A DNA stretch of 64,000 nucleotides from a phage, in the sequence record PZ445489.1; one strand, 5' to 3'. The notes under the pieces are model-generated. The model did no database searches. It was not told the origin of the DNA and saw only the letters and a program-made list of their open reading frames with translations. Every line of letters begins with the position of its first letter. The stretch's first letter is position 1. Positions 4,594-44,467 of the stretch are shown piece by piece. The translations under genes and the position numbers were made by a program.

Positions 4594-4621
4594 TCTCCTT
4601 TGCACGCTTTCGTGCCTTCTA

Positions 4622-4658
4622 AATGCAAAAAGGGGAAGGAGCATAGCCCCCTCCCCTT
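4622..4658 (-). terminator. hairpin + T-run (minus strand) downstream of 4676..5443 gene
   Basis: AAGGGGA/TCCCCTT stem with T-rich tail on minus strand. Confidence 0.4.
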
Positions 4659-32356: not shown

Positions 32357-32431
32357 CGGGGTGTAGTCTAAGGGAGAGGCAGGAGTCTTCTAAATTCCTT
32401 TATGCAGGTTCGAATCCTGTCACCTCGGCCA
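32357..32431 (+). tRNA. tRNA-Arg (anticodon UCU)
   Basis: Acceptor CGGGGTG/CACCTCG, anticodon stem GGAGU/AUUCC loop CUUCUAA, T-arm GCAGG-TTCGAAT-CCTGT, encoded CCA. Confidence 0.7.
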
Positions 32432-32465
32432 ATTTTATTAACTGTAACTAAAACAAAGGAAATAT

Positions 32466-33413
32466 ATGTTTAATACTAAAAATATGAAAGAACTGACTTC
32501 TGAGCAGAAAGTAATTCGTACTATTAAACGTTGGGGTATTGGTGCTGTAGTTGGTTTAGCAGGCTTGATTCTAGCCTTTAATTCATATACTATTGTTTCT
32601 GATGGTACGGTTAAAACCCAAACATTTCTGGGTAAAGTAGATCCTAACCCAGTATTACCAGGTTTCCATCTTGTAAACCCATTTGCATCTTTCGACACTT
32701 TTAGTACAAAAGATATTGCTGTAAAATTAGATAAACTTCAGGTTCCTAGCCAGGATAAGTTTAAATCCACTGTTGACCTGACTGTTATGTTGCAGTTTGA
32801 TGGTTCTAAGGCACCAATTAACCGTATTAACGCAGGTACTCAGGATCAAGCGTTAGACAAATATGTAACTGAAAAATTACTGTCTACTATTCGTGAGTTT
32901 GGTAAGTCTGTACCTAAAGCACAAGATTTGTTTGATGCTAAAATTCAGGCTCAATTGCAAACTGCAATTCAACAGGAAGTTGAAGAGTATGCACGCCCAT
33001 ATGGTTACACAGTTAAGCAGGTATTCCTTCAGGATATTACTTTGCCACCGGTAATCATGGAACAGGTACAGAATACCAAAGTTCGTGAAGAACAGGTTAA
33101 TGCTGCTAAAGCTGAATTAGCTCGTGTTGAACAGGAAGCACAGCAAAAAGTTAAACAAGCAGAAGCAGATCGTGAAGCTCGCAACAACCAAGCTATCGCT
33201 AATGAACGTGACGCAGATGCTAAACTGTACGCAGCTAAGAAAGAAGCTGAAGCTAACGCCGCACTGCAACGTACCATTACTCCTGAGATGATTCGTTGGA
33301 AACAACTGGAAGTCGAAATGATTCGTGCTCAGAAATATCAAGGTGGTGTACCACAGACTGTGGTAGGTACTGGCTACGATGGTCAAATGATCATGGATAT
33401 GCGTAATAAATAA
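32466..33413 (+). CDS. SPFH/band-7 (prohibitin/HflK-like) membrane protein
   Basis: N-terminal TM segment, SPFH-like core, C-terminal Ala/Glu/Gln-rich coiled coil. Confidence 0.6.
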   Translation: MFNTKNMKELTSEQKVIRTIKRWGIGAVVGLAGLILAFNSYTIVSDGTVKTQTFLGKVDPNPVLPGFHLVNPFASFDTFSTKDIAVKLDKLQVPSQDKFKSTVDLTVMLQFDGSKAPINRINAGTQDQALDKYVTEKLLSTIREFGKSVPKAQDLFDAKIQAQLQTAIQQEVEEYARPYGYTVKQVFLQDITLPPVIMEQVQNTKVREEQVNAAKAELARVEQEAQQKVKQAEADREARNNQAIANERDADAKLYAAKKEAEANAALQRTITPEMIRWKQLEVEMIRAQKYQGGVPQTVVGTGYDGQMIMDMRNK

Positions 33414-33437
33414 TATCCGCATGTAACATCTGAAGTA

Positions 33438-33476
33438 AGCCCTGCGTTCCCTGGAGAGCGCAGGGCTTTTCTTTTA
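33438..33476 (+). terminator. rho-independent terminator
   Basis: AGCCCTGCG...CGCAGGGCT hairpin + TTTTCTTTT. Confidence 0.6.
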
Positions 33477-33486
33477 TCTTAAATAC

Positions 33487-33526
33487 AGAAAAGCCCCTAA
33501 GTCTTTCGACTAGGGGCTTTATTGTT
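33487..33526. terminator. bidirectional rho-independent terminator
   Basis: AAAAGCCCCTAAGTCTTTCGACTAGGGGCTTTATTGTTT: GC stem flanked by A-run and T-run. Confidence 0.6.
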
Positions 33527-33737
33527 TGGTTCTTCAGAACCACACTCTCGGTGTACAGCAACCACCCATACGGGAGGCCAATCTTGACTGAAAATCTACT
33601 CTAGGGGGCAGGATAAGAGTAGGCTTAAAGGCAAAGGGATTGAACGCCGGTATTTGTGTAAACATTGCTGGAGAGCAACAACGTGCTACAGGCATTGGGC
33701 AGCACGAAACAGGTTTTCTGCAACACATAATTTCTCC

Positions 33738-34154
33738 TTAGGAGTTATTACCACCATTTTGAGCTTTTGCAACTTGGCTTTGGCAGAAGCTATTAAACTT
33801 ACCCATAAGTGATACAAGCTGCTTCCCATCCTCTGTCTTTGCGAAGTCTTCGAAAAGGGCTAGTACTGCCTGTCCTTCCGCAGAAACCTGCGGTTGTTGG
33901 GTTTGCTGCTGAACTTGCTGCTGCGGCATCTGTTGTTGCATTTGTTGAGGCATTTGCGACTGCCCGCTCATTTGCTGCATCATTTGCATAGGACTCACAC
34001 TTCCAGGGTTTTGCTGGAGTTGTTGTTGCATCTGTTGCGCTTCTGCTAAACGCTGTTGCAATTGTTGTAAGTAGGGGTTATCCAGACCCGGAATGGGCTG
34101 CTGGGAGCCCATACTTTGATTAAGTCCGTTATTTACAAAACCATATTTACTCAT
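33738..34154 (-). CDS. glutamine-rich low-complexity protein (138 aa)
   Basis: ORF; long Q/M/P runs. Confidence 0.5.
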   Translation of the reverse strand: MSKYGFVNNGLNQSMGSQQPIPGLDNPYLQQLQQRLAEAQQMQQQLQQNPGSVSPMQMMQQMSGQSQMPQQMQQQMPQQQVQQQTQQPQVSAEGQAVLALFEDFAKTEDGKQLVSLMGKFNSFCQSQVAKAQNGGNNS

Positions 34155-34175
34155 AATGGGCTCCTCCCCTTAATA

Positions 34176-35158
34176 TTAAGCCGGCAGTTTAGCCTGCAGA
34201 CCAGCCAGAGTCTGAGTGATAGCACCAAGACTTACAGCGATTTGATTAATTACCTGACCGTTAGCACCGTTACCCGCAGCGATTGCTTCACGTAGGCGAC
34301 ATGCATCTAACTCATCCTGAATACGAGCAGTAGTTACACCAGCGATAGCAGTCTGAAGTTCACAGCAACATTCAGCGATCTGACGTTCCAGAGAGTTCTG
34401 GTTAGCACACATCTGAGCCTGAACAGCGGCAAACTGGTTATTAGTTTGTAAAGTCTGCTGGAAAGCGATCTGTGCAGAATCAAACTTATCTTGTGCACGA
34501 GCTATCTGATTAGCTGCGAAAGATTGATCAATCTGGCGAGAAAGATCGAACTGACCCTGAATAACGTTGCGAGTTTCCTGACAGATCTGATTAGACAGAT
34601 TAGCACCTGTACCATAGATCGTAGTTAGTACAGACTGAGTATCACGGCTCTGGTTTTGGGATGTCTGGCTAAACCCATTGTTAACTGCGCTTAAAACAGC
34701 TCCAGTACCCTGGTTAGCTTCTGTACGAGTAGTGTTAATAGCTGCTAGAATACTAGCGGTATCTTGGTTCTGAAGTACTGCATCAACTGCGGTACCATCA
34801 CCAACTACACCACGTCCACCGAATCCACCGAAACCACCGAATCCGCCTGTTAATAGAGCACCGATTAGGATAGCTCCGAATAGTCCCATACCTTCACCAC
34901 CGAAAGCACCTGCGTTTGCTGGGTAACCACCCAGTAGGCCAGGGAAGCCACTAGTAAATACGTTTACTGGTTCTTGCATTTTATGTTTTCCATATTTATG
35001 ACAATGTTCATCGTCATCTTCTTCATCATCGTGTTCACGATGTTTTTCTTCGTAGGCTCTGACCTTCTCCCACTTTTTCTTATCTGATTCCTCGTGACGG
35101 TGCAGTTCTGCTGCAACGCTAGCGACGGTCTCAGGACTCTTAGCTACTTCTTCTGTCA
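34176..35158 (-). CDS. glycine-zipper membrane protein with His/acidic N-terminus and Q/N/A-rich C-terminal region
   Basis: AGGAGGTG RBS then ATG at 35158-35156; GLFGAILIGALLTGGFGGFGGFGG segment. Confidence 0.5.
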
Positions 35159-35365
35159 TTTTTGACACCTCCTAGTATATAGAAAATGTGTGTCTCTTTG
35201 ATCACTCATCCATAACATATACTTTACACTACCCCAGCGAAAATGTCAAGGGGTCTTTAAAAATTGCCCCTGAATTTTTAGTGGGGTCACAAATTTTGGT
35301 CCTCACCACTTATCTGCTATCCTTAAGTGCCCTATGATTTTCCTCTAAAAAGTTAAAAAATTTGA

Positions 35366-35394
35366 TTGCTTGAATGCTAAATTCTCTGTATAAT
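35366..35394 (+). promoter_or_regulatory. early-type promoter
   Basis: AAAAATTTGATTGCTT-17-TATAAT + ATATCTATAAATTTGAAAGAGG. Confidence 0.55.
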
Positions 35395-35424
35395 ATATCT
35401 ATAAATTTGAAAGAGGAACCAAAT

Positions 35425-35943
35425 ATGAATGTTGATGAGCTAACACAGCACCTCTTATCTAGAGGATTTGATACAGATAAATATCATTGCTGGTTAAGTC
35501 CGGAAGGATGGCTAACAGTCCCGTTGTATGACTTCTCTGGGATGTTGAGGGGCTATCAAACTTATAATCCTTCTGCTCCAAAAGGTCATGGTAAGTGCCC
35601 CTTTGAAGCTAAATACTTTACTTATTCTACTACCCAGTGTGTATGGGGACTAGAAACTCTCAATGGAGATGAAAAAGTAGTATTGATTGCTGAATCTGTA
35701 TTTAAGGCAGTTGCGTTACATAATGCTGGTTATCCAGCCCTAGCAATGTTGGGTTCTTCTCCAGGAAAAGCGTTATTAAAGCAACTGAAATTACTACCTT
35801 TTAAATTGGTAGCTGTCGGAGATAATGATCCTGCGGGTGAAAAATTTGCTAGAAAATTAAACGGCTTTGTTTCTCCCGTAGATGTGGATGAGATGTCTAC
35901 CGAAAACTTGAAAAATTTTCTTGCTATGAAGCTAAATTTCTAA
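35425..35943 (+). CDS. standalone Toprim-domain protein
   Basis: VVLIAESVFKAV (Toprim Glu) and LVAVGDNDPAGEKFA (DxD) motifs; ATG 35425 with GAAAGAGGAA RBS. Confidence 0.55.
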   Translation: MNVDELTQHLLSRGFDTDKYHCWLSPEGWLTVPLYDFSGMLRGYQTYNPSAPKGHGKCPFEAKYFTYSTTQCVWGLETLNGDEKVVLIAESVFKAVALHNAGYPALAMLGSSPGKALLKQLKLLPFKLVAVGDNDPAGEKFARKLNGFVSPVDVDEMSTENLKNFLAMKLNF

Positions 35944-35964
35944 TATAATATATCTTATAAATTC

Positions 35965-36053
35965 GGAAGAATAGCATAACGGTATTGCAGCAGATTGCTA
36001 ATCTGTCGGTTTGAAATATAGCCTTGTGGGTTCGATTCCCGCTTCTTCCGCCA
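35965..36053 (+). tRNA. tRNA-Ser (GCU), type II
   Basis: Acceptor GGAAGAA/TTCTTCC, anticodon loop TTGCTAA, long variable arm, T-arm GTGGG-TTCGATT-CCCGC, CCA. Confidence 0.75.
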
Positions 36054-36059
36054 AATTCT

Positions 36060-36137
36060 GGTTCTCAAGCTCATATGGTATGAGCACCCGGCTCATAACC
36101 GGAAGGTACGTAGGTTCGAATCCTCGGGGAGCCACCA
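36060..36137 (+). tRNA. tRNA-like, anticodon CAU (Met/Ile2), imperfect T stem
   Basis: Acceptor GGTTCTC/GGGAGCC (2 GU), D stem GCTC/GAGC, anticodon loop CTCATAA, T loop TTCGAAT with 2 mismatches in stem. Confidence 0.45.
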
Positions 36138-36156
36138 AATTAAATAGAGGTCACAA

Positions 36157-36345
36157 ATGGATCTATATATAGTTTATGTTGTGTTTATCCAAGATAGAGA
36201 ATACCCGGATGAATATAAAAAAGGATATAGGTTAGCCAGAGCTACCTCTGAAGCCCAAGCTATGGATAAAGTGGCAGATTATATGATTACGGTAGAAAAC
36301 ATACACTATATCGACTACCTTGAAGCCTCAAAAGTAATTGACTAA
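36157..36345 (+). CDS. hypothetical protein (62 aa)
   Basis: ORF. Confidence 0.4.
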   Translation: MDLYIVYVVFIQDREYPDEYKKGYRLARATSEAQAMDKVADYMITVENIHYIDYLEASKVID

Positions 36346-36354
36346 GGAGACTAT

Positions 36355-36540
36355 ATGTCTAAGTTTCAAGAACTCAAGCAAGAGCTAGAAGAATGTGCCT
36401 GCCCTGAGTGTAGAGGAATTGGTGAAAGTTCTGATGCAGAAGCAGGAGATACTTTTTGCAATATCTGGGTTTGCCCAAATTGCAATGGTACAGGTATTAA
36501 TCCTAACTGTGGTATTTCCCTAGATATTGAACGAGGATAA
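36355..36540 (+). CDS. small zinc-ribbon protein (61 aa)
   Basis: CACPEC...CPNCNG. Confidence 0.45.
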   Translation: MSKFQELKQELEECACPECRGIGESSDAEAGDTFCNIWVCPNCNGTGINPNCGISLDIERG

Positions 36541-36641
36541 TACCTGTAAAACTAAAAGATTATTATATTGGTTGGTTTGTGGGACTAGTAGTAGGATTTT
36601 CACTAGGCTATAATATGTATCAACTAATAAACTGATTACAC

Positions 36642-36718
36642 GGGGGTGTAATCGAATTGGCATAGGTACTGGACTTAAAATTCAGGTTTTGTGGGTTCGA
36701 ATCCCACCACCCCTACCA
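36642..36718 (+). tRNA. tRNA-like, anticodon UAA (Leu-type anticodon on short-variable-arm scaffold), atypical D arm
   Basis: Acceptor GGGGGTG/CACCCCT, anticodon stem CTGGA/TTCAG loop CTTAAAA, T-arm GTGGG-TTCGAAT-CCCAC, disc A, CCA. Confidence 0.5.
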
Positions 36719-36893
36719 AACTAAGGAAATAAGATGTATAGACATCCACCTCCGCCAACACGTCGTTCTAGAGAAGTTATCCTCATGGAATTGACTAAAA
36801 ACTTCAAGGCAACTCTTGAAGATAGAGATCTAGGTACAGATGAAGACGTTGATTTCATTTGTAAACTATTAAAAATGAAGCTGGAGAAACATC

Positions 36894-37100
36894 ATGGCTA
36901 ACCGTGAAATTACTATGCAACGAATCATGACTAAAGGCATGATAGCCGAGGCAGGTATTGAACAAGAAGTAAAAGGCTATTACGAACAGATTAAGACTAT
37001 TATAGACTCTGCTAAAAACACCGGAGAAAAAGAACACGGTGCAGCAATTATGGCTATAACTCTTATTAGCCTAGACTTAGCTGAAGAATCTGGAGTTTAG
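36894..37100 (+). CDS. hypothetical protein (68 aa)
   Basis: ORF. Confidence 0.4.
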   Translation: MANREITMQRIMTKGMIAEAGIEQEVKGYYEQIKTIIDSAKNTGEKEHGAAIMAITLISLDLAEESGV

Positions 37101-37130
37101 CTCCTCCAAACAGAATTTTTAAAAATGTAC

Positions 37131-37160
37131 TTGCCTTTTGCTTTAAATTTCTGATATAAT
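37131..37160 (+). promoter_or_regulatory. early-type promoter
   Basis: TTGCCT-18-TATAAT. Confidence 0.5.
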
Positions 37161-37190
37161 AGTTGTATAAATTGATGAAGGAGTTAACGA

Positions 37191-37466
37191 ATGCAAAATC
37201 GTGTTGTAGCAACTGGTATTGAAAGTGCAATCTGCAAATCCTGGGAAGACTGGGAAGGTGAGATTGAGTGGCTCTATCTCTATAACGTAGATCTTCTACC
37301 GGAGGTTAAAGCTAAATGTATTGAAGCTGGCATGGCTCCAGATGCAAAAGCTGATATTGATATTTCAATGTCTGAACTTAAAGGTCGTGTAATTACTGTT
37401 AGTGATGAGGGCGAAGAAGTTTTCGAACTTCCGTTCTCCTTAACTGTCACTCCTAAGTTCGACTAA
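37191..37466 (+). CDS. hypothetical protein (91 aa)
   Basis: ORF with promoter and GAAGGAG RBS. Confidence 0.45.
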   Translation: MQNRVVATGIESAICKSWEDWEGEIEWLYLYNVDLLPEVKAKCIEAGMAPDAKADIDISMSELKGRVITVSDEGEEVFELPFSLTVTPKFD

Positions 37467-37503
37467 CTAATACAGCACTGAGCAAGTTCTTTAAAATTTG
37501 ACT

Positions 37504-37531
37504 TGCTCAGTGCCTTAAAACTTGGTATAAT
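37504..37531 (+). promoter_or_regulatory. early-type promoter driving tRNA sub-cluster
   Basis: TTGCTC-16-TATAAT. Confidence 0.5.
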
Positions 37532-37596
37532 ATTTACCTAATTTGGAAACATATTTAAAAGTGTTTAAATGAGAATTTTTGAATACTTCTAAATAT

Positions 37597-37687
37597 GTTG
37601 GATTAGTATCGTAGAGGTAGCGAAGCAGACTGTAAATCTGCCGACTCGGAAGGGTCTCGGGTGGTTCGACTCCATCATCCAACACCA
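37597..37687 (+). tRNA. tRNA-Tyr (GUA), type II
   Basis: Acceptor GTTGGAT/ATCCAAC, anticodon stem GCAGA/TCTGC loop CTGTAAA, long variable arm, T-arm GGTGG-TTCGACT-CCATC, CCA. Confidence 0.75.
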
Positions 37688-37694
37688 AATTTAA

Positions 37695-37771
37695 GTCCTG
37701 TTAGACAAACTGGTAAAGTCACTACCCTTTCAAGGTAGGATTTGCGGGTTCGATCCCCGCACAGGACGCCA
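37695..37771 (+). tRNA. tRNA-Glu (UUC)
   Basis: Acceptor GTCCTGT/ACAGGAC, anticodon stem CTACC/GGTAG loop CTTTCAA, T-arm GCGGG-TTCGATC-CCCGC, CCA. Confidence 0.75.
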
Positions 37772-37779
37772 ATTTCTGC

Positions 37780-37856
37780 ATTCCTAGAGTGTTACTGGAC
37801 AGCATGTCGGTCTCCAAAACCGTACGGTCTAGGTTCGAGTCCTAGTAGGTTTGCCA
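37780..37856 (+). tRNA. tRNA-like, anticodon CCA (Trp), acceptor stem with mismatches
   Basis: Anticodon loop CTCCAAA, T-arm CTAGG-TTCGAGT-CCTAG, 3' GCCA; acceptor pairing imperfect. Confidence 0.5.
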
Positions 37857-37862
37857 AAATTT

Positions 37863-37937
37863 GCACCTTTAGCTGAGATGGATTAGCGCTTGCCTGAAGA
37901 GCTTGAGAGGTTCGTTCGATACGAACAGGGTGCACCA
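37863..37937 (+). tRNA. tRNA-like, anticodon uncertain (possibly GAA, Phe)
   Basis: Acceptor GCACCTT/AGGGTGC, T-arm GTTCG-TTCGATA-CGAAC, CCA; anticodon stem poorly paired. Confidence 0.45.
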
Positions 37938-37954
37938 AATTGAAGGAGCTGCTG

Positions 37955-38227
37955 ATGCATCCTGAAAACTTCTTTATTTACTGCGCTGATAAGTCGCTAA
38001 AACGTAGAATTAACAAAGTCTACCATTATCGTGCTAGTCAACAGCCTTATGTATATGCTTTTGACGGTGATCACATTCCATTAGAACAATTATCTTGTGA
38101 TTACATGATATTAAAGAACTTTGACGAGACGAAGATCTCAAGCGTTCACAATCGGCAGAATCCATTAACGTGGAAATATAAGAAGAAAAAGAAAGGCATC
38201 AAATTCTTAAAAAATATAGTTGCTTAG
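37955..38227 (+). CDS. hypothetical protein (90 aa)
   Basis: ATG 37955 after AAGGAG. Confidence 0.45.
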   Translation: MHPENFFIYCADKSLKRRINKVYHYRASQQPYVYAFDGDHIPLEQLSCDYMILKNFDETKISSVHNRQNPLTWKYKKKKKGIKFLKNIVA

Positions 38228-38248
38228 TTTCCAAAAGTTCTGTATAAT
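38220..38248 (+). promoter_or_regulatory. early-type promoter
   Basis: TTGCTT-17-TATAAT. Confidence 0.55.
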
Positions 38249-38296
38249 AATTACATAAATTGAACTGGAGAAGCAACATGACAGAACAAGATAAAC

Positions 38297-38372
38297 CGAC
38301 CGTTGGCTGAATGGCTTAGGCGAAGGATTGCAAATCCTTTTTATGTGAGTTCAAATCTCATGCGGTCGTCCA
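38297..38372 (+). tRNA. tRNA-Cys (GCA)
   Basis: Acceptor CGACCGT/GCGGTCG, anticodon stem AAGGA/TCCTT loop TTGCAAA, T-arm GTGAG-TTCAAAT-CTCAT, CCA. Confidence 0.7.
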
Positions 38373-38379
38373 AATTTTA

Positions 38380-38462
38380 GGGTCGTTAGCCAAGCGGTTT
38401 GGCGGTGGACTGTTAATCCATGTCGAAAGACAACGTAGGTTCGAATCCTACACGGCCCGCCA
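38380..38462 (+). tRNA. tRNA-Asn (GUU) with extended variable region
   Basis: Acceptor GGGTCGT/ACGGCCC, anticodon loop CTGTTAA, T-arm GTAGG-TTCGAAT-CCTAC, CCA. Confidence 0.6.
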
Positions 38463-38564
38463 AATTCTGTGTAGAGTTAAGTAAACCGGTAGCCAACCAG
38501 CTATCATTGCTGACATCGAATTCAGCCACAGATACCATTTTCATTAATAACTGAGGAAACAAGC

Positions 38565-38750
38565 ATGTCCAAGAATGTAATTGCGCAGCTAGAAGTTCAT
38601 CGTGATAGCACTATCAACAATATTGAAGTTGAAAAGAAATACATCGAAGAACTTAAACATGATATACTAGTGAGTCTCAACCGTCTTAATGTACGAAAAG
38701 AGTTTCTTAAAGAACTTAATGCAGCTATTGAAAAACTCAAAGCTGAGTAA
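38565..38750 (+). CDS. hypothetical protein (61 aa)
   Basis: ORF with GAGGAAACAAGC RBS. Confidence 0.4.
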   Translation: MSKNVIAQLEVHRDSTINNIEVEKKYIEELKHDILVSLNRLNVRKEFLKELNAAIEKLKAE

Positions 38751-38759
38751 ATGAATTAT

Positions 38760-38836
38760 GCGACCGGGGCTGGCTTGGTAATGGTACTCCCCTGTCACGG
38801 GAGAGAATGTGGGTTCAAATCCCATCGGTCGCGCCA
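38760..38836 (+). tRNA. tRNA-Asp (GUC)
   Basis: Acceptor GCGACCG/CGGTCGC, anticodon stem CTCCC/GGGAG loop CTGTCAC, T-arm GTGGG-TTCAAAT-CCCAT, CCA. Confidence 0.8.
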
Positions 38837-38862
38837 AATTAATTTAGTATGAGAAATATGCT

Positions 38863-39210
38863 ATGATTAATGCTAAAGAAGAATTGTTACTTGCCCTAAA
38901 GAATACTAATTCTGAAGTTAAGTGTATTAAGATAGAATTCGGTTATTATGGAGACAAAGAAGTTTGGGTATTACCCGTAGGTTATACAGAAAAAGATATT
39001 GAAGATTTTCTAAATAATCTAGACTTTAAATATGATTCTGGTTTCGGTGGACAATTGCTTTATGGTAACGTATGGTTTACTGATGGAACTTGGTTAGAAC
39101 GTGGTGAATATGATGGTTCTGAATGGTGGGAATATAAGACTACACCAGCAATTCCAGAGGAATGCCGAACAATTAATGGTGAAGTAGATCGTACTTTACT
39201 ATTAAATTAA
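38863..39210 (+). CDS. hypothetical protein (115 aa)
   Basis: ORF. Confidence 0.5.
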   Translation: MINAKEELLLALKNTNSEVKCIKIEFGYYGDKEVWVLPVGYTEKDIEDFLNNLDFKYDSGFGGQLLYGNVWFTDGTWLERGEYDGSEWWEYKTTPAIPEECRTINGEVDRTLLLN

Positions 39211-39450
39211 CAAAATCTCAGTGCAGAACACGGAGCTAGCAATTCGGAAGTGCTGACTCATGATAAGCTGCCTATGTACTTGCGAAGCGGTCGTGTCCAA
39301 GACTCGGACTCTTGCACTGAAAACAATCAAACATTCTAGCGTGGTTGATGGGGAAACCAGCTTGGCTAGGGCAGAAGCTCGTTCGATTCGAGTGAAAGAA
39401 TGGTTCTCGTAAGTCCGCACAAGTGATAGCAGGTTCGAGTCCTGTCTAGA

Positions 39451-39642
39451 ATGACATATTCTGGAGGTTTTGTGAATTACAAAGAATTAGATCTTTTAGC
39501 AAATAAATTCACAGAGCTATCTGATAACGTTGTATCAAAGGACTCCAACATAGATAATTTTATTACTGAATATCGTGATGGTATAATCTCTAAACAAGAG
39601 TTGTTAGATAAAACGTATAAATATTTAAAGGGGTTCAGCTAA
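39451..39642 (+). CDS. hypothetical protein (63 aa)
   Basis: ORF. Confidence 0.4.
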   Translation: MTYSGGFVNYKELDLLANKFTELSDNVVSKDSNIDNFITEYRDGIISKQELLDKTYKYLKGFS

Positions 39643-39953
39643 ACGGTTAAGCACTGTCCTACTTCGGACAGAGGGAGTAACACGTAGTCTCCCAAACTCC
39701 CCCAAATTTAGATTTCTGCTTCCTAGAGAACGGACTTCTGAATAAACAAGGCGATGAAGTTTCCGGCCGGTTCTAGTCGCTAAAGTCCCTCTAACGGGGC
39801 GTAAGTAAATGAAAGTTTACTTATTATGTAGGTTCCGATAGATCGGCGGGTCTATTCTGGCATTTAAGAGAGGTCTCGCAAACTTCTTTGTCAGCCGTGG
39901 GGTTGGTAGCCTCCAGGTGGCCTACACAATAAGTAAATTTATTAAAAATTCAT

Positions 39954-39982
39954 TTGCTATTCTGCTATATTATCTGTATAAT
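39954..39982 (+). promoter_or_regulatory. early-type promoter
   Basis: TTGCTA-17-TATAAT. Confidence 0.55.
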
Positions 39983-40014
39983 ATATTTTATAAAGTGAAG
40001 AGAAGGAAAGCAAA

Positions 40015-40173
40015 ATGAAACACAAGATAGCTCAAGTTTTTATGACATTATGGTGTATGCCAATAGCTATAACAGCATTTAATCTAGATACTTTTACTAT
40101 AGAAGAAAAATGTATCGGATTAGTTAGCGGCTTTAGTATGCTGGGCTTATCTTTGTTGTGGTTGAAGAAATAA
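40015..40173 (+). CDS. small hydrophobic protein (52 aa, not in ORF track)
   Basis: ATG after GAGAAGGAAAG RBS and promoter; two hydrophobic segments. Confidence 0.35.
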   Translation: MKHKIAQVFMTLWCMPIAITAFNLDTFTIEEKCIGLVSGFSMLGLSLLWLKK

Positions 40174-40177
40174 TATT

Positions 40178-40255
40178 CTCCGTGTAGCTCAGTTTGGCCA
40201 GAGCGTTTCGTTTGGGGCGATAGGGTCGGGGGTTCAAATCCTCCCACGGAGACCA
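40178..40255 (+). tRNA. tRNA-Pro (UGG)
   Basis: Acceptor CTCCGTG/CACGGAG, D stem GCTC/GAGC, anticodon loop TTTGGGG, T-arm GGGGG-TTCAAAT-CCTCC, CCA. Confidence 0.7.
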
Positions 40256-40261
40256 AACAAT

Positions 40262-40339
40262 TGCGGGTTAGATCTCTGGTAGAGATCGCTAGTCTCATAA
40301 GCTAGAAAGAGGTAGGTTCGATTCCTGCACCCGCTTCCA
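40262..40339 (+). tRNA. tRNA with anticodon CAU (Met/fMet/Ile2)
   Basis: Anticodon stem CTAGT/GCTAG loop CTCATAA, T-arm GTAGG-TTCGATT-CCTGC, CCA. Confidence 0.6.
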
Positions 40340-40359
40340 CTTTAATAGAGGATTTCGAA

Positions 40360-40527
40360 ATGAAAGTATTTCGATTAGTAGTAAGTGACAAACGTTTAGG
40401 TAATAATACCTCAAGATCCTTACTTGCACATTATGGTAAAAATTGGGATGAAGTAATGGCAGAGTTTAATACTAATCACCCTTACTTGAAAGTTCACTCT
40501 ATTAAAGAGGTATATAATGGTTACTAA
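40360..40527 (+). CDS. small hypothetical protein (55 aa, not in ORF track)
   Basis: ATG 40360 between tRNAs. Confidence 0.3.
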   Translation: MKVFRLVVSDKRLGNNTSRSLLAHYGKNWDEVMAEFNTNHPYLKVHSIKEVYNGY

Positions 40528-40528
40528 T

Positions 40529-40606
40529 AGATCGCTAGCTCAACTGGATAAGAGTAGCGGACCTTTAATCCGTCAGTTCTGGGTTCGAATCCCAGGCGAT
40601 CTACCA
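40529..40606 (+). tRNA. tRNA-Lys (UUU), C at position 33
   Basis: Acceptor AGATCGC/GCGATCT, anticodon stem GCGGA/TCCGT loop CCTTTAA, T-arm CTGGG-TTCGAAT-CCCAG, CCA. Confidence 0.6.
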
Positions 40607-40610
40607 AATT

Positions 40611-40684
40611 GCTCGGTTAGTTTAATGGGAGAACCCCGTCTTTACACGGCGGTTGTGATAGTTCGATTCTATCACCGAGTACCA
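40611..40684 (+). tRNA. tRNA-like with non-canonical anticodon loop (identity unclear)
   Basis: Acceptor GCTCGGT/ACCGAGT, T-arm GATAG-TTCGATT-CTATC, CCA; anticodon region CCGT-CTTTAC-ACGG (6-nt loop). Confidence 0.45.
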
Positions 40685-40703
40685 ATTAACTCAAAATAAG
40701 GAA

Positions 40704-41072
40704 TTGCAAATGCAATTATCAAACAAGATTCAAGGTTATTTCGGTCATGTGACAATGGAGTTCGCATTGCAGCATGGCTGGGATATGGAAAAAGATCTAT
40801 CGGAATTTTATGAGTCTCATAAAGAGATTGATCTTAGTTCTGTCTATTTGGGATTATCTACTGGTCAAGAACTTACAGAATATGATGTATTCAAGGCAAG
40901 TCAAGGTGAGATAACACCTAGTTTTGCCGAGTTCTGGCTAGGAATTACCTTGAAGGATAATGCACCAGATGAAGGTGTGGTTATGCAAAGTATGCACTCT
41001 GGAAGCTCTGATTACCTTTACGTTCGTGATGTAAAGGAACTACAGGAAATCGCTAAAAATGTACTTGCTTAA
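40704..41072 (+). CDS. hypothetical protein (122 aa)
   Basis: ORF with RBS AAGGAATTG. Confidence 0.5.
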   Translation: MQMQLSNKIQGYFGHVTMEFALQHGWDMEKDLSEFYESHKEIDLSSVYLGLSTGQELTEYDVFKASQGEITPSFAEFWLGITLKDNAPDEGVVMQSMHSGSSDYLYVRDVKELQEIAKNVLA

Positions 41073-41093
41073 TGCTTAATTTCTTGTTATAAT
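41065..41093 (+). promoter_or_regulatory. early-type promoter
   Basis: TTGCTT-17-TATAAT. Confidence 0.55.
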
Positions 41094-41432
41094 ATTTATA
41101 TAAATTGATGCGAAAATAGCTGCCTAGATACCAGGTGTATGACGTCTACACTAGCAGAGCTACCGAAAAAGAGATCCTCAGGATAAACGTCGTAGCAAAA
41201 TTAGTCTGGTATCCATCAATTTAGTTCACTAAGGTATTAGCTCGACCTAGGACTGGCTGCCAAAAAGCACGATCCCTACAATTCGGGAGAAGTTCTAGAT
41301 TAGTCCACTAGATTCAGCGGCAACTGAATAGTGTATCGGGTTTGCGAGATGACGCAGTTCCTTCCGCTCGAAGCGAAGGTGCTGTAGTTACGCCGAGCTA
41401 ATAGCCTTAGTAAACTTACAGGGGTTAACGCA

Positions 41433-41819
41433 GTGTGTACAAAAACATGTAGAGCCTGTGGGAATGAATATCCGTTAACAACCGAATATTTTTATTCGAA
41501 TGGATTTACTCCTAATGGCACAAAGAAGTGGAAGCCAACATGTAAAGCATGTGAAAAAGCTGAACGAGTAGCTGGACATGAAGAATTAATTAAAGAAGTA
41601 TTTCCTGTATTAGAATGTAGTATTTGTGGATATAATAGGTGTAAACAAGCCCTAGATTTCCACCGTACTAATCCAGAAGAAAAGGAATACTCCATTGCAA
41701 GGTTTAGAACTTCTCGTAGAAACAGAGAAGTAGTAATAGCAGAACTTAAAAAGTGCGTACTATTATGCTCTAACTGCCATAGAGAAGTACATGCTGGATT
41801 AATAAATTTGGGCGAATAG
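41433..41819 (+). CDS. HNH endonuclease
   Basis: C-terminal CVLLCSNCHREVHAG HNH motif plus CxxC pairs; GTG start per ORF track; 3' end overlaps tRNA-Ala. Confidence 0.65.
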   Translation: MCTKTCRACGNEYPLTTEYFYSNGFTPNGTKKWKPTCKACEKAERVAGHEELIKEVFPVLECSICGYNRCKQALDFHRTNPEEKEYSIARFRTSRRNREVVIAELKKCVLLCSNCHREVHAGLINLGE

Positions 41820-41884
41820 TGTCAGCGGGAGCACACCAGACTTGCAATCTGGTAGGGAGGGTTCGAGTCCCTCTTTGTCCACCA
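41810..41884 (+). tRNA. tRNA-Ala (UGC)
   Basis: Acceptor GGGCGAA/TTTGTCC (2 GU), D stem GTGT/ACAC, anticodon stem CCAGA/TCTGG loop CTTGCAA, T-arm GAGGG-TTCGAGT-CCCTC, CCA. Confidence 0.65.
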
Positions 41885-41889
41885 AATAC

Positions 41890-41966
41890 GCGTGATTGAT
41901 GGAATTGGCATACATACCGTCCTTAGAAGTCGGGTTTTGAGGGTTCGAATCCCTTGTCACGCACCA
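41890..41966 (+). tRNA. tRNA-like, anticodon UAG (Leu-type) on short-variable-arm scaffold; paralog of 36642 element
   Basis: Acceptor GCGTGAT/GTCACGC, loop CTTAGAA, T-arm GAGGG-TTCGAAT-CCCTT, CCA; shares GAATTGGCATA D-region with 36642 tRNA. Confidence 0.5.
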
Positions 41967-42078
41967 AATTTGATGGTCAGAGTAAATTAAACCTACTATC
42001 TCGGTTGAGCTGTTTTAATGGGTTCGAATCCCAGCGAGGCGTAACTGCCTGGTGTGATAGAGGCATCATCTTATTATT

Positions 42079-42169
42079 GGAAGAGCAAATCGAATTGGCG
42101 ACGAAAACCGCTTGGAAAGTGGCTGACTGGTAAAACGGCTTGAGAGTTCAAATCTCTCCTCTTCCGCCA
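42079..42169 (+). tRNA. type II tRNA, probably Ser (GGA)
   Basis: Acceptor GGAAGAG/CTCTTCC, T-arm GAGAG-TTCAAAT-CTCTC, CCA, 91 nt; anticodon loop assignment TTGGAAA tentative. Confidence 0.55.
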
Positions 42170-42175
42170 AATAAT

Positions 42176-42265
42176 AGAAGATAGGACGTAGTGGTACGTA
42201 ACTGGTCTTGAAAACCAGCCCGCTGTAGCGATACGGTGATGGTTCGACTCCATTATCTTCTGCCA
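42176..42265 (+). tRNA. tRNA-Ser (UGA), type II
   Basis: Acceptor AGAAGAT/ATCTTCT, anticodon stem CTGGT/ACCAG loop CTTGAAA, long variable arm, T-arm GATGG-TTCGACT-CCATT, CCA. Confidence 0.75.
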
Positions 42266-42285
42266 ATTAGCTATAAGGAAACCTT

Positions 42286-42459
42286 ATGAGCAAAACAGTT
42301 ACTGTAACAATGAAGGATGGCAAAAAATTTAAAGCATGTCTTCATGAAACAGATAAGGGATGGATGGCTTACTTGCCACACCTAGATTCCACCGGGTATG
42401 GAATGACCCAACGTGAAGCTATTGTTGATGCTTTAAATGAGGCTTCTGCTGGTTTATAA
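42286..42459 (+). CDS. small hypothetical protein (57 aa, not in ORF track)
   Basis: ATG after AAGGAAACC RBS. Confidence 0.35.
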   Translation: MSKTVTVTMKDGKKFKACLHETDKGWMAYLPHLDSTGYGMTQREAIVDALNEASAGL

Positions 42460-42828
42460 AAAATTCTTGAAGTATGCCGGAATCGGTAGACGGGGCTGCC
42501 TAAAAGGTTTATAGGGAACATCCACTCCCTGCAACATACCTCATAAAGCGGCTGAGATAAATGGTCTATCTCGTGAAGGTTCAAGTCCTTCTGCTTCTTG
42601 ATACATCTATGGCTCAAAGTGTAACGGTGCTATTTGATGCTCTTGGTAAGACTTCCCCGACATGCGTTCGGGAGTAAGCTGCTAAGACTAGAGTAGAAGA
42701 GTTTCTGAGAGCCGCCACAATTGAAAATTCGTACTCGTCTTGAGCTGCGTGCAATAGGAGATAACTTGATTAGTATTCTAGAACATGCTAATTGAGGAAG
42801 GTTTCGCTAACCCTGCGAGTTTTCAATT

Positions 42829-42905
42829 GTGGCTATATCATAATTGGTTAATGATCCTGATTGTGAATCAGGCCTATGTGGATTCGAATTCCACTAGCCA
42901 CCCCA
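42829..42905 (+). tRNA. tRNA-His (GUG)
   Basis: Acceptor GTGGCTA/TAGCCAC, anticodon stem CCTGA/TCAGG loop TTGTGAA, T-arm GTGGA-TTCGAAT-TCCAC, CCA. Confidence 0.75.
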
Positions 42906-42930
42906 AATTAACTTAAATAGGAAATAAAAT

Positions 42931-43137
42931 ATGGCTGATTTCTGCAAACAATGCTCCATTGATATGTGGGGCAGAGATACTGGTGATCTTTCTGGTTTGA
43001 TTACAGAAGCTGAGGTCAAAGAAGGTTATGGTGTAGTTGTGGTTTGCGAAGGGTGCGGAGTTATTCGAGTAGATCATGAAGGCAAACGTTTAGAAGATCC
43101 AAAAAGTATTAAGAAGAAGGTTAGCCAAGTCGGTTAA
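42931..43137 (+). CDS. hypothetical Cys-rich protein (68 aa); 3' end overlaps tRNA-Gln
   Basis: CKQC...CEGCG; RBS AGGAAATAAAAT. Confidence 0.4.
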   Translation: MADFCKQCSIDMWGRDTGDLSGLITEAEVKEGYGVVVVCEGCGVIRVDHEGKRLEDPKSIKKKVSQVG

Positions 43138-43190
43138 GGCTGGGGTCTCTGAAACCCCGATCAGTGGTTCGAACCCACTACCTTCTGCCA
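43115..43190 (+). tRNA. tRNA-Gln (CUG)
   Basis: Acceptor AGAAGGT/ACCTTCT, anticodon stem GGGGT/ACCCC loop CTCTGAA, T-arm AGTGG-TTCGAAC-CCACT, CCA. Confidence 0.7.
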
Positions 43191-43196
43191 AACAGT

Positions 43197-43274
43197 TGGG
43201 GATTAGCTTAGCCTGGTCTAAAGCTTCGGCCTTTGAAGTCGAGATCATTGGTTCAAATCCAATATCCCCTGCCA
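43197..43274 (+). tRNA. tRNA-Gln (UUG)
   Basis: D stem GCTT/AAGC, anticodon stem TCGGC/GTCGA loop CTTTGAA, T-arm ATTGG-TTCAAAT-CCAAT, CCA. Confidence 0.65.
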
Positions 43275-43282
43275 AACAATAA

Positions 43283-43357
43283 GCGGTTAAGCACACGGGT
43301 TGTGTCGCAGGCCTTCCAAGCCTCGCTGAGTAGGGTTCGATTCCCTCTAGCCGCTCC
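43283..43357 (+). tRNA. tRNA-Gly (UCC)
   Basis: Acceptor GCGGTTA/TAGCCGC, anticodon loop CTTCCAA, T-arm TAGGG-TTCGATT-CCCTC, CCA. Confidence 0.6.
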
Positions 43358-43374
43358 AACTTTAAGGGAACATT

Positions 43375-43596
43375 ATGCACGTTTTTGAGTTTCGTAATAA
43401 AAGTACTGATAAACGAGTTATTGTTATTGGGGAAACATACCGAGCATACGAACAAACTGACGGTTCTGTTATCCTGAATGATGAGAAAGGAGGTTTTAGC
43501 TTTTATCCCAAAGAAACTTACGAAGAATTTCGTACAAAGTTTCTTCTACCAGACTGGCTAGAAGTAGCGCAGCAACGAGAACCCGAAGATGGCTGA
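43375..43596 (+). CDS. hypothetical protein (73 aa)
   Basis: ORF. Confidence 0.45.
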   Translation: MHVFEFRNKSTDKRVIVIGETYRAYEQTDGSVILNDEKGGFSFYPKETYEEFRTKFLLPDWLEVAQQREPEDG

Positions 43597-43753
43597 CAAC
43601 CTAAAAGTCAAGATCGATAAACAAAAGAAACGTGTAGAAGTAGAGATTGGTGAAGAACGTGTAGCCTTCACCTTTGAATTTCTACAACAAATGGCAATGA
43701 CAGTTATGACTGATAAGTCTCCTGTTATTGAAAAAGAAATCCCGTTGAAATAA
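43589..43753 (+). CDS. small hypothetical protein (54 aa, not in ORF track)
   Basis: ATG overlapping upstream stop. Confidence 0.3.
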   Translation: MADNLKVKIDKQKKRVEVEIGEERVAFTFEFLQQMAMTVMTDKSPVIEKEIPLK

Positions 43754-43763
43754 CGGGATCATC

Positions 43764-43838
43764 GCTCCTAAAGCATTGCTGGCGATGCAGTTGCCTTGTA
43801 AGCATCTGAACCGGGTTCGATTCCTGGTGGGAGCACCA
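43764..43838 (+). tRNA. tRNA-Thr (UGU)
   Basis: Acceptor GCTCCTA/TGGGAGC, D stem GCAT/ATGC, anticodon loop CTTGTAA, T-arm CCGGG-TTCGATT-CCTGG, CCA. Confidence 0.65.
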
Positions 43839-43863
43839 AATTTAAAAATTCATTTGCCTTCTC

Positions 43864-43892
43864 TCTTATTTCTTGTTATAATATCTATATAA
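43864..43892 (+). promoter_or_regulatory. early-type promoter
   Basis: TTGCCT-17-TATAAT. Confidence 0.55.
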
Positions 43893-43912
43893 ATTAATGA
43901 GAGGGAAACCAA

Positions 43913-44203
43913 ATGAAACGTTATCTTTCTGTAGTATTCCAAACTGGTGGTCAAAGATATACCTATGAATTTCCATCTTCTTGGAAAATCAAAGAAGGTG
44001 ATCAAGTAGTAGTGTTAACACCGCGTGAAGGATATAAAGTAGTAACGGTTAAACAAGTATTCCCAAAAGATCATGAACCAGCTAAAGGCATTCGCTATAA
44101 GATGATTCATGGTGTGGTTCGTCAAGTACCACGAACTGAGGTAGAAGTAGATAAGACTGGAGAAGCTAAATTCCATTATACTTCTTACTTAGACAGTGTA
44201 TGA
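43913..44203 (+). CDS. hypothetical protein (96 aa)
   Basis: ORF with GAGAGGGAAACC RBS. Confidence 0.5.
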   Translation: MKRYLSVVFQTGGQRYTYEFPSSWKIKEGDQVVVLTPREGYKVVTVKQVFPKDHEPAKGIRYKMIHGVVRQVPRTEVEVDKTGEAKFHYTSYLDSV

Positions 44204-44218
44204 TGTAAATATTCTAAT

Positions 44219-44295
44219 ACTTCGGTAGCTTAGCGATCTAAAGCACTCGGCTGATAACCGAGAGATCGGGGGTTTAAATCCCTCCCGGAGTACCA
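44219..44295 (+). tRNA. tRNA-Ile (GAU) with variant T loop TTTAAAT
   Basis: Acceptor ACTTCGG/CCGGAGT, anticodon stem CTCGG/CCGAG loop CTGATAA, T-arm GGGGG-TTTAAAT-CCCTC, CCA. Confidence 0.65.
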
Positions 44296-44391
44296 AATCT
44301 AGGAATTAAGACTATGCGTCCAGGAAAGTTTAAAAAAGCTAATTGGTCTAAAGAGTATAAAGAATACTTACTTAGTCTAGTAAAACATAAC

Positions 44392-44467
44392 AGTTAGTTG
44401 GCAGAGTGGTTATGCACCTCCTTCATACGGAGCGACTACAGTGGTTCAAATCCACTACTAACTACCA
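44392..44467 (+). tRNA. tRNA with anticodon CAU (Met/fMet/Ile2), third CAU species
   Basis: Acceptor AGTTAGT/ACTAACT, anticodon loop TTCATAC, T-arm AGTGG-TTCAAAT-CCACT, CCA. Confidence 0.65.

What the first reader, a model, noticed from the sequence alone, without database searches (positions are those of the whole stretch)
35425..35943. Standalone Toprim-domain protein at the head of the tRNA cluster
A 173-aa protein with Toprim Glu and DxD motifs but no primase zinc finger or helicase domain, separate from the bona fide primase at 2234-3124. Small Toprim proteins can be nucleases (OLD/RNase M5-like); its position next to the tRNA array suggests a possible RNA-processing role.
Basis: partly seen in the sequence, partly recalled or inferred. 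Interest (0 to 1): 0.4.

Follow-up and report, generated by a model that had tools for sequence, protein, structure and literature searches.

The report
Phage T5 anti-retron protein Rad
This small gene at the head of the tRNA cluster of a T5-like phage encodes the already described protein Rad (T5 ORF071, SP15 ORF75), a stripped-down primase-like enzyme that phages use to switch off bacterial retron defences, so the finding is real but not new.

Summary
The ORF is real: 35425-35943 (+), 172 aa, with its own early promoter and Shine-Dalgarno sequence. It passes the Pfam Toprim_2 cut-off and has no zinc finger or helicase domain. It is distinct from the true primase at 2234-3124.

It is more than a bare Toprim domain. 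A confident AlphaFold model (pLDDT 93.6) superposes over 162 of 172 residues on DnaG RNA-polymerase domains. RNase M5 matches only the ~87-residue Toprim half.

The protein is 97% identical to T5 ORF071 ("DNA primase"). The literature equates ORF071 with Rad, ORF75 of phage SP15, which rescues T5-like phages from retrons Eco2 and Eco7. A 2023 preprint reported that Rad lowers retron ncRNA and msDNA. The 2024 peer-reviewed version left the mechanism open.

The family is large, with 256 clusters at E<=1e-30, mostly stand-alone. Its Toprim acidic residues are nearly invariant, which argues for an enzyme.

A role in maturing the phage's own tRNAs is not supported. The gene lies in a deletable region, Rad works without phage tRNAs, and all 24 window tRNA genes encode CCA.

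However, the family recurs beside tRNA arrays and beside, or fused to, CCA-adding enzymes. An RNA-end or tRNA-directed activity therefore stays open.

Verdict: already known; low to moderate interest.

The parts
35425..35943 (+). Coding sequence of Rad (172 aa plus stop), orthologue of T5 ORF071 and SP15 ORF75
   Evidence: ORF list. 97% identical to AAX12008.1 of T5 AY587007. The residues R13, P33, I88, D135 and E156 that were mutated in the Rad study are present at the same numbering.
35425..35673 (+). Residues 1-83: N-terminal subdomain of a DnaG-type catalytic core. It carries the family motifs HLLSR, GxQxY, (K/R)Y and WGLE.
35674..35940 (+). Residues 84-172: Toprim domain. Catalytic residues are E90 (35692-35694), D133/D135 (35821-35829) and D153/E156 (35881-35892).
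   Evidence: Pfam Toprim_2 above its cut-off. Profile match to the E. coli DnaG Toprim. hhalign to the T5 primase motifs IV-VI. Conservation: E90 202/202, D133 180, D135 194, D153 190.
35412..35417 (+). Shine-Dalgarno sequence AGAGGA, 7 nt upstream of ATG 35425
   Evidence: Sequence. An RBS is annotated at the same place in AJ604531.
35345..35394 (+). Early promoter (P15a of phage 5): an A/T-rich upstream element and the -10 box TATAAT at 35389-35394. It contains the upstream ATG 35374, which is therefore unlikely to be the start codon.
   Evidence: Sequence. Promoter P15a is annotated over the equivalent bases in AJ604531. My consensus scan did not call it because the -35 box is weak.
35921..35949 (+). 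Promoter-like site TTGCTA-17-TATAAT (P15b) overlapping the last codons of the gene. It drives the tRNA-Ser at 35965.
   Evidence: Promoter scan, 10 of 12 matches. Annotated as P15b in AJ604531.

Best explanation
The ORF encodes Rad (retron anti-defence; T5 ORF071, SP15 ORF75), an early, non-essential counter-defence protein of T5-like phages.

Anatomy (shown here). It is a minimal DnaG-type RNA-polymerase domain, made of the N-terminal subdomain plus Toprim. It lacks the zinc-binding domain that gives primases their template specificity, and it lacks any helicase-binding part. The Toprim metal-binding residues are retained and almost invariant across the family.

Function (taken from the literature). 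When expressed alone, it restores plating of T5 and SP15 deletion mutants on cells carrying retron Eco2 (Ec67) or Eco7 (Ec78).

Mechanism (inferred, and the weakest step). The protein uses the primase-like single-strand/hybrid binding groove to dock on the nucleic-acid part common to retrons, the msr-msd ncRNA or msDNA. Its Toprim metal centre then cuts or otherwise destabilises that nucleic acid, so the retron complex is not built or cannot signal.

Its place at the head of the tRNA array reflects the clustering of counter-defence functions in the deletable tRNA-rich region, not maturation of the phage's own tRNAs.
For: Identity:
- 97% identity over 172 aa to T5 ORF071.
- PMC10644984 states that ORF071, once annotated as a primase because of its Toprim domain, is Rad.
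- The preprint's mutated residues R13, P33, I88, D135 and E156 match this sequence exactly.
- The preprint's 189-aa length equals the longest ORF here.

Function:
- ORF75 alone rescues phages from retrons Eco2 and Eco7 (PMC11555353).
- SP15m, which lacks Rad and tRNA-Tyr, is sensitive to Eco7 (PMC12673091).

Mechanism:
- The preprint reports reduced msDNA and msr-msd RNA, but unchanged RT and effector transcripts. D135H and E156H weaken the activity.

Enzyme-like conservation:
- E90 is 202/202 conserved, D133 180, D135 194, D153 190, K/R63-Y64 202/202.

Fold:

Counter-defence context elsewhere:
- Fusions to Mom, Arr-like ADP-ribosyltransferase, GNAT and an NMNAT-like domain.
- NAMPT as a neighbour.
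- Homologues in Privateervirus phages; the preprint reports that Rad of Proteus phage Privateer is active against retron Ec78.
Against: - The ncRNA-degradation claim exists only in the 2023 preprint. The peer-reviewed version dropped it and says the mechanism could not be determined. No in vitro nuclease assay is reported in the papers I could read.
- In several retrons, loss or cleavage of msDNA activates the toxin rather than silencing it. Simple destruction of msDNA is therefore not an obvious way to disarm them.
- T5 carrying ORF75 does not escape the FORC82 type I-A retron.
- The fold is that of a polymerase (primase), not of a known Toprim nuclease.
- The T5-type proteins have Lys at the position of DnaG D269, whereas 123 of 202 family members keep Asp.
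Confidence: 0.8

Rival explanations
1. Rad-family proteins act on tRNA or RNA 3' ends rather than on retron ncRNA. They would work with a CCA-adding enzyme as a repair or end-healing module, either by templated refilling or by trimming of a damaged acceptor stem. This would neutralise effectors that cut tRNAs, such as the Toprim of retron Eco2.
For: - Three independent fusions with CCA-adding enzymes, in both domain orders: P0068, P0078 and P0160.
- A CCA enzyme gene lies directly adjacent in Vibrio phage F99 and Shewanella phage 1/40, and tblastn places the Vibrio phage helene 12B3 homologue in the same F99-like setting. It is also adjacent in IMG/VR loci L047 and L054.
- The gene sits in or next to tRNA arrays in T5-like phages and in about 6 further sequence clusters.
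- Activated Eco2 nicks tRNA acceptor stems 6-7 nt upstream of CCA. That lesion would need templated refilling plus CCA addition.
- The fold is a template-dependent RNA polymerase domain.
Against: - The preprint reports inhibition of retrons with non-tRNA effectors (Ec48, Se72) and a fall in msDNA and ncRNA.
- Type I-A retrons are said to cut tRNA D-loops, which refilling cannot repair.
- The 64-kb window holds no CCA enzyme.
- DnaG-type enzymes copy DNA templates, not RNA (general knowledge).
- The tRNA adjacency may be inherited synteny, or a by-product of accessory genes gathering in tRNA regions.
Confidence: 0.1
2. Rad is a non-catalytic binder or decoy. The primase-like groove sequesters msDNA or ncRNA, or blocks the retron reverse transcriptase or the phage-nuclease trigger, without any chemistry.
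For: - Single substitutions of the acidic residues (D135H, E156H) only slightly reduce activity; double mutants are needed to abolish it.
- ZBD-less DnaG-like domains can be catalytically silent, for example the primase-like domain of human Twinkle, a top structural match (the inactivity is general knowledge).
- Binding that shields msDNA from D15 or DenB would explain inhibition without triggering the toxin.
Against: - Near-invariance of all Toprim metal ligands across 202 family representatives is hard to explain without catalysis.
- The preprint reports lower ncRNA and msDNA amounts, not just masking.
Confidence: 0.12
3. It is a second, auxiliary DNA primase subunit used in phage replication, as many GenBank and RefSeq records annotate it.
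For: - PHROG 849 and RefSeq call it 'DNA primase'.
- The fold and motifs II-VI are DnaG-like.
- In Jerseyvirus and Privateervirus the homologue lies among replication genes.
- One family member (P0079) has an N-terminal zinc-finger domain, DUF3268.
Against: - No zinc-binding domain and no helicase contact domain.
- The phage has a complete primase next to its helicase.
- The gene lies in a region deleted in the viable mutants T5n and SP15m, and reportedly in one BF23 isolate.
- Privateervirus encodes a separate annotated primase/helicase, and Jerseyvirus a separate 728-aa RepA-type replicative helicase.
- ZBD-less DnaG cores are not known to make template-directed primers on their own (general knowledge).
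Confidence: 0.03

Closest known systems
Rad (retron anti-defence) = ORF75 of phage SP15 = ORF071 / AAX12008.1 of phage T5 (Azam et al., bioRxiv 2023 and Nat Commun 2024)
   Same: 97% identical to the T5 protein. Same length and same position, between a divergent promoter region and the tRNA-Ser that opens the tRNA-rich region. The residues mutated in the Rad study fall at identical numbering.
   Different: Nothing substantive; this is an orthologue in another T5-like phage. The published length of 189 aa corresponds to an upstream ATG that lies inside the promoter. The functional protein is most likely 172 aa.
DnaG-type primase RNA-polymerase domain (E. coli DnaG 1DD9/3B39, Aquifex 2AU3, T7 gp4 1NUI, Twinkle)
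   Same: Same two-subdomain fold over about 160 residues. It has the Toprim Glu, the DxD and the third acidic motif, and also the KY and (Y/W)GL motifs of the N-terminal subdomain.
   Different: No CHC2 zinc-binding domain, no C-terminal helicase-binding domain and no helicase. The 'GGR' arginines appear to be replaced by Q45/Y47 (my alignment from memory of DnaG, not a tool result). Lys replaces DnaG D269 in the T5 type. It is dispensable for replication.
Toprim ribonucleases: RNase M5, and the Toprim effectors of OLD, PARIS AriB and retron Eco2
   Same: Shared Toprim core with acidic metal ligands. These enzymes show that a Toprim domain can cut structured RNA, including tRNA stems.
MG010-type truncated DnaG paralogues of Mycoplasma (TIGR00646)
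   Same: A DnaG-like catalytic core without a zinc finger. There is a weak profile match over nearly the whole protein (E=7.7e-5, residues 9-165).
   Different: The score is far below the family cut-off (22 against 261 bits). MG010 is cellular rather than viral, and its function is unknown.

Membership tests
Rad / T5 ORF071 / SP15 ORF75 anti-retron protein | Close sequence identity to the characterised protein | tested here: met
   167 of 172 residues identical to T5 AAX12008.1. 100% identical to the ORF trn 2.1 product of Salmonella phage 5.
Rad / T5 ORF071 / SP15 ORF75 anti-retron protein | The functionally tested conserved residues (R13, P33, I88, D135, E156) are present | tested here: met
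   All five are present at exactly those positions of the 172-aa form.
Rad / T5 ORF071 / SP15 ORF75 anti-retron protein | Location in the deletable tRNA-rich early region of a T5-like phage | tested here: met
   The window is a T5-like genome. The gene lies 22 nt upstream of tRNA-Ser, at the head of a run of 23 tRNA genes. The order is the same as in T5.
Rad / T5 ORF071 / SP15 ORF75 anti-retron protein | Neutralises retron defence when expressed | not testable with these tools
   Known only from the literature, for the SP15 and T5 proteins.
DnaG-type DNA primase | Toprim domain with a catalytic Glu, a DxD and a third acidic motif | tested here: met
   E90, D133/D135 and D153/E156.
DnaG-type DNA primase | N-terminal subdomain of the catalytic core | tested here: met
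DnaG-type DNA primase | CHC2 zinc-binding domain | tested here: not met
   No Zn_ribbon_DnaG hit. Only three scattered Cys. The true primase of the window has the domain.
DnaG-type DNA primase | A helicase-binding or helicase domain, or a neighbouring replicative helicase | tested here: not met
   The protein ends right after the Toprim domain. Its neighbours are tRNA genes and small ORFs. The T5 primase sits next to the 507-aa ORF at 3121-4644.
DnaG-type DNA primase | Template-directed primer synthesis | not testable with these tools
   Requires an enzyme assay.
OLD-family nucleases | N-terminal ABC-type ATPase coupled to the Toprim domain | tested here: not met
   No ATPase domain in the 172 aa. 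No OLD, Gabija or PARIS model hit in PADLOC; the only hit is a Toprim-only match to 'RTasDnaG-like'.
RNase M5 | Toprim domain plus a C-terminal rRNA/uL18-binding domain, with best fold similarity to RNase M5 | tested here: not met
Pfam Toprim_2 (PF13155) | Score above the gathering threshold | tested here: met
   24.9 bits against a cut-off of 22.1.

The most novel reading that the evidence does not exclude
The Rad family is not primarily a retron-ncRNA nuclease. It would be an RNA-end-directed enzyme that cooperates with CCA-adding enzymes to mend or re-trim tRNA acceptor ends damaged by defence nucleases, such as the acceptor-stem nicks made by retron Eco2. Its recurrent fusion to CCA-adding enzymes and its placement in tRNA arrays would then reflect a new phage tRNA-repair pathway built on a zinc-finger-less primase.
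Probability: 0.1. Interest if true: 0.75.

Novelty: already known. Interest (0 to 1): 0.22.

Why it matters
The gene itself is a documented anti-retron factor, so rediscovering it adds nothing new.

Two points are still worth knowing. First, many database records still call it "DNA primase" or "hypothetical protein", which misleads annotation of T5-like therapeutic phages. Second, how a zinc-finger-less primase core disarms retrons is unresolved in the literature I could read.

- the full DnaG-core fold;
- the near-invariant metal ligands;
- the links to CCA-adding enzymes, NAD-salvage genes and tRNA arrays.

Tried and rejected
- **PDB search with the single sequence.** It gave only spurious weak hits, to xylanases. 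A family profile was needed to reach DnaG, at E~1e-3 and over the Toprim part only.
- **hhalign of the family against the window's own primase.** It aligned only the Toprim half. The N-terminal subdomain relationship therefore rests on the predicted structure, not on sequence.
- **PADLOC.** It returned only a Toprim-only match to an RT-associated DnaG-like model. I judged this uninformative.
- **The 189-aa reading from ATG 35374.** I considered and rejected it, because that ATG lies upstream of the -10 box of the gene's own promoter.
- **tRNA adjacency in six named phages** (Jerseyvirus, Privateervirus x2, Vibrio, Shewanella, Dickeya). I found no tRNA within 5 kb, and at first took adjacency to be T5-specific. 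A wider IMG/VR sample then showed adjacency in several more clusters, so I withdrew that conclusion.
- **The Jerseyvirus homologue as that phage's only primase.** Rejected as unproven: the genome has a separate 728-aa RepA-type replicative helicase with an unassigned N-terminal half.
- **Later mechanistic or structural papers on Rad.** Four literature searches found none.

Full report
**What is there**

The window is a T5-like phage genome. The region 34900-36400 is 97-98.6% identical to many Tequintavirus and related Salmonella, Escherichia and Shigella phages.

An ORF ends at 35943 on the + strand. Its longest form starts at ATG 35374 (189 aa). The 172-aa form is the better reading for three reasons:
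- ATG 35425 is preceded by AGAGGA at 35412-35417.
- A perfect -10 box, TATAAT, sits at 35389-35394, downstream of the first ATG.
- In the hand-annotated record of the identical gene in Salmonella phage 5 (AJ604531, "ORF trn 2.1; putative DNA primase-related protein"), promoter P15a covers the upstream ATG and the RBS precedes the 172-aa start.

A second promoter-like site, TTGCTA-17-TATAAT at 35921-35949, lies within the last codons of the gene. It precedes tRNA-Ser at 35965 and is annotated P15b in AJ604531.

**Checking the observation**

The Toprim assignment holds:
- Pfam Toprim_2 scores E=2.6e-5, 24.9 bits, above its 22.1 cut-off.
- PHROG 849 "DNA primase" scores E=1e-62, covering profile positions 141-337 of 435.
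- There is a weak NCBIfam match to the zinc-finger-less DnaG paralogue MG010.

The Toprim Glu is E90 and the DxD is D133-N-D135. A third acidic motif, D153-V-D-E156, aligns with motif VI of the phage's own primase.

There is no zinc finger: only three scattered Cys. There is no helicase domain.

The ORF at 2234-3124 is a complete DnaG-type primase, with CHC2 zinc ribbon, DNAG_N and Toprim. It is only remotely similar to the ORF under study (23% identity, E=0.07). A profile of the small protein's family does not detect that primase at E<=0.01.

**It is more than a Toprim domain**

An AlphaFold2 model built on 41 homologues is confident (mean pLDDT 93.6, pTM 0.89).

The protein is therefore a minimal DnaG catalytic core: the N-terminal subdomain plus Toprim, with the zinc-binding and helicase-binding modules removed.

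**Identity**

The 172-aa protein is 97% identical (167/172) to AAX12008.1, the "DNA primase" between ORF070 and ORF072 of T5 AY587007, that is, ORF071.

The literature links this protein to Rad:
- The source preprint (10.1101/2023.03.15.532788) describes Rad, ORF75 of the T5-like phage SP15, as a 189-aa protein with primase/Toprim similarity.
- The substitutions it reports (R13E, P33T, I88T, D135H, E156H) fall on exactly those residues in the 172-aa numbering of the window protein.

What the literature reports about function:
- The peer-reviewed version (PMC11555353) confirms that ORF75 alone is the determinant that lets the phage evade retrons Eco2 and Eco7. It explicitly leaves the mechanism undetermined.
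- PMC12475279 shows that T5 carrying ORF75 does not escape a different type I-A retron, FORC82.

The finding is therefore an already described gene.

**Mechanism: what is shown and what is inferred**

Shown in the literature: genetic sufficiency against Eco2 and Eco7.

Reported only in the preprint: lower msDNA and msr-msd RNA with unchanged RT and effector mRNA, partial loss of function in single mutants including D135H and E156H, and activity against Ec83, Ec48 and Se72.

Shown here:
- The family is large. It has 256 clusters at 50% identity with E<=1e-30, and 1,400 at E<=1e-3.
- It is mostly stand-alone proteins of 166-210 aa.
- It keeps its catalytic residues almost without exception. Across 202 representatives, E90 is 202/202, D133 180, D135 194 and D153 190, and position 156 is acidic in 180.
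- The N-subdomain residues are equally conserved: G43 202, Y47 199, K/R63 202, Y64 202 and R13 193.

This pattern argues for an enzyme rather than a passive binder.

The position equivalent to DnaG D269 is Asp in 123 members and Lys in 67, including the T5 type.

My best mechanistic reading is inferred. The primase-like groove docks on the nucleic-acid component shared by retrons, and the Toprim centre cuts or destabilises it.

Weak points:
- The claim was withdrawn from the published paper.
- msDNA loss activates several retrons rather than silencing them.
- The fold is that of a polymerase.

**The tRNA question**

Evidence against a role in maturing the phage's own tRNAs:
- The gene lies in the ~8 kb region missing from the viable mutants T5n and SP15m.
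- ORF75 works from a plasmid without phage tRNAs.
- All 24 tRNA genes in the window encode their CCA end.
- The window has no CCA-adding enzyme.
- Homologues in Jerseyvirus, Privateervirus, Vibrio, Shewanella and Dickeya phages have no tRNA gene within 5 kb.

Evidence that a link with tRNA biology nevertheless exists at family level:
- Among 55 non-T5 IMG/VR loci, which fall into 19 sequence clusters at 70% identity, the gene lies inside or within 4 kb of a tRNA array in about 6 clusters (the L042/L084, L043-L051, L058, L060, L062 and L091 clusters), and also at L065, a truncated match that was not clustered.
- A CCA-adding tRNA nucleotidyltransferase gene lies directly next to it in Vibrio phage F99 and Shewanella phage 1/40. 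The Vibrio phage helene 12B3 homologue, seen only in tblastn, lies in the same F99-like setting.
- The same enzyme is also adjacent in IMG/VR loci L047 and L054.
- Three family representatives are fusions with a CCA-adding enzyme, in both domain orders: P0068, P0078 and P0160.

Other fusion partners and neighbours:
- Mom.
- An Arr-like ADP-ribosyltransferase, in one case together with GNAT.
- HAD, ParB_N, an NMNAT-like domain and a DUF3268 zinc finger.
- NAMPT, as a recurrent neighbour.

Mom, the Arr-like domain, NAMPT and the NMNAT-like domain fit a counter-defence role. The simplest reading is co-localisation of counter-defence functions.

A bolder reading is a primase-derived enzyme that works with the CCA enzyme on damaged tRNA acceptor ends. 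It gains some interest from the report that activated retron Eco2 nicks acceptor stems 6-7 nt upstream of CCA. I rate it at about 10%.

**Verdict**

It is partly wrong: the fold is not OLD/RNase M5-like, and there is no support for tRNA precursor processing.

The gene is the known anti-retron protein Rad. Novelty: already known. Interest is low to moderate because the mechanism is still open.

Noticed in passing
window 36060-36134 (+): Rfam finds a tRNA here (40.3 bits, above the gathering score) that ARAGORN missed. It matches the position of the T5 'tRNA-Met' and phage 5 'tRNA-Ile2 (AUG)' gene right after tRNA-Ser. The window therefore has 24 tRNA genes, not 23.
   Followed up: partly
window 32357-44467, 3' ends of all tRNA genes: All 24 tRNA genes encode the terminal CCA. 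In 17 of them the trailer begins with AA, and in 10 it begins with AATT. This suggests a shared 3'-processing signal.
   Followed up: no
window 35389-35410 and 35944-35965: The sequences around the two -10 boxes flanking the gene are near-identical repeats (tataatatatct[a/t]taaatt). One of them coincides with T5's annotated 'repeat c', just upstream of the gene. It is a reiterated early-promoter module.
   Followed up: no
L012 4986-5510 (Escherichia phage PhiR41_1), and E. coli plasmids such as NZ_CP172110.1 86603-87127: A 42%-identical Rad homologue sits in an ea22/eaA-type accessory region. The same gene occurs on 108-115 kb plasmids in 152 of 5,426 complete E. coli genomes and never on a chromosome. 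It is annotated 'toprim domain-containing protein'. These look like phage-plasmids.
   Followed up: partly
L010 5034-5529 (Dickeya phage JA33); tblastn gives the same two-piece match in Erwinia and Serratia jumbo phages: The homologue is split by a frame change exactly between the N-terminal subdomain (WGTE motif) and the Toprim half. This recurs in many independent genomes, so it is not a sequencing error. It could be two polypeptides, a programmed frameshift or a decayed gene.
   Followed up: partly
Proteins P0068, P0078, P0160; loci L004 3724-5558, L009 3703-5558, L047 6392-8744, L054 7974-10310: Rad-family domains are fused to, or directly adjacent to, CCA-adding tRNA nucleotidyltransferases (PolyA_pol head plus an HD domain). 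I found no mention of this association in the papers searched.
   Followed up: partly
Proteins P0062, P0070, P0073, P0079, P0084, P0099, P0150, P0151: Other fusions of the family domain: Arr-like ADP-ribosyltransferase (with or without GNAT, in proteins of up to 1,046 aa), Mom, HAD phosphatase, the DUF3268 zinc finger, ParB_N and a cytidylyltransferase-like (NMNAT-type) domain.
   Followed up: no
L073 3266-4705, L077 6513-7883, L009 7118-8701: Nicotinamide phosphoribosyltransferase (NAMPT) genes recur within one to three genes of Rad homologues. In Shewanella phage 1/40 they sit together with a PRPP synthase and a peptidyl-tRNA hydrolase, which looks like a counter-defence island.
   Followed up: no
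L044 9056-9127, L045 4184-4255, L050 9159-9230: The tRNA arrays that flank Rad homologues in uncultured phages contain a tRNA with anticodon UCA, which ARAGORN labels 'SeC'. It may be an opal suppressor.
   Followed up: no
window 34176-35168 (-) and 33738-34154 (-): The two ORFs transcribed divergently from the Rad gene (330 aa and 138 aa) have no Pfam match. Both have low-complexity stretches: Gly-rich in the 330-aa ORF and Gln-rich in the 138-aa ORF. T5 AY587007 annotates this stretch differently (ORF072, ORF073, 'kapc').
   Followed up: no
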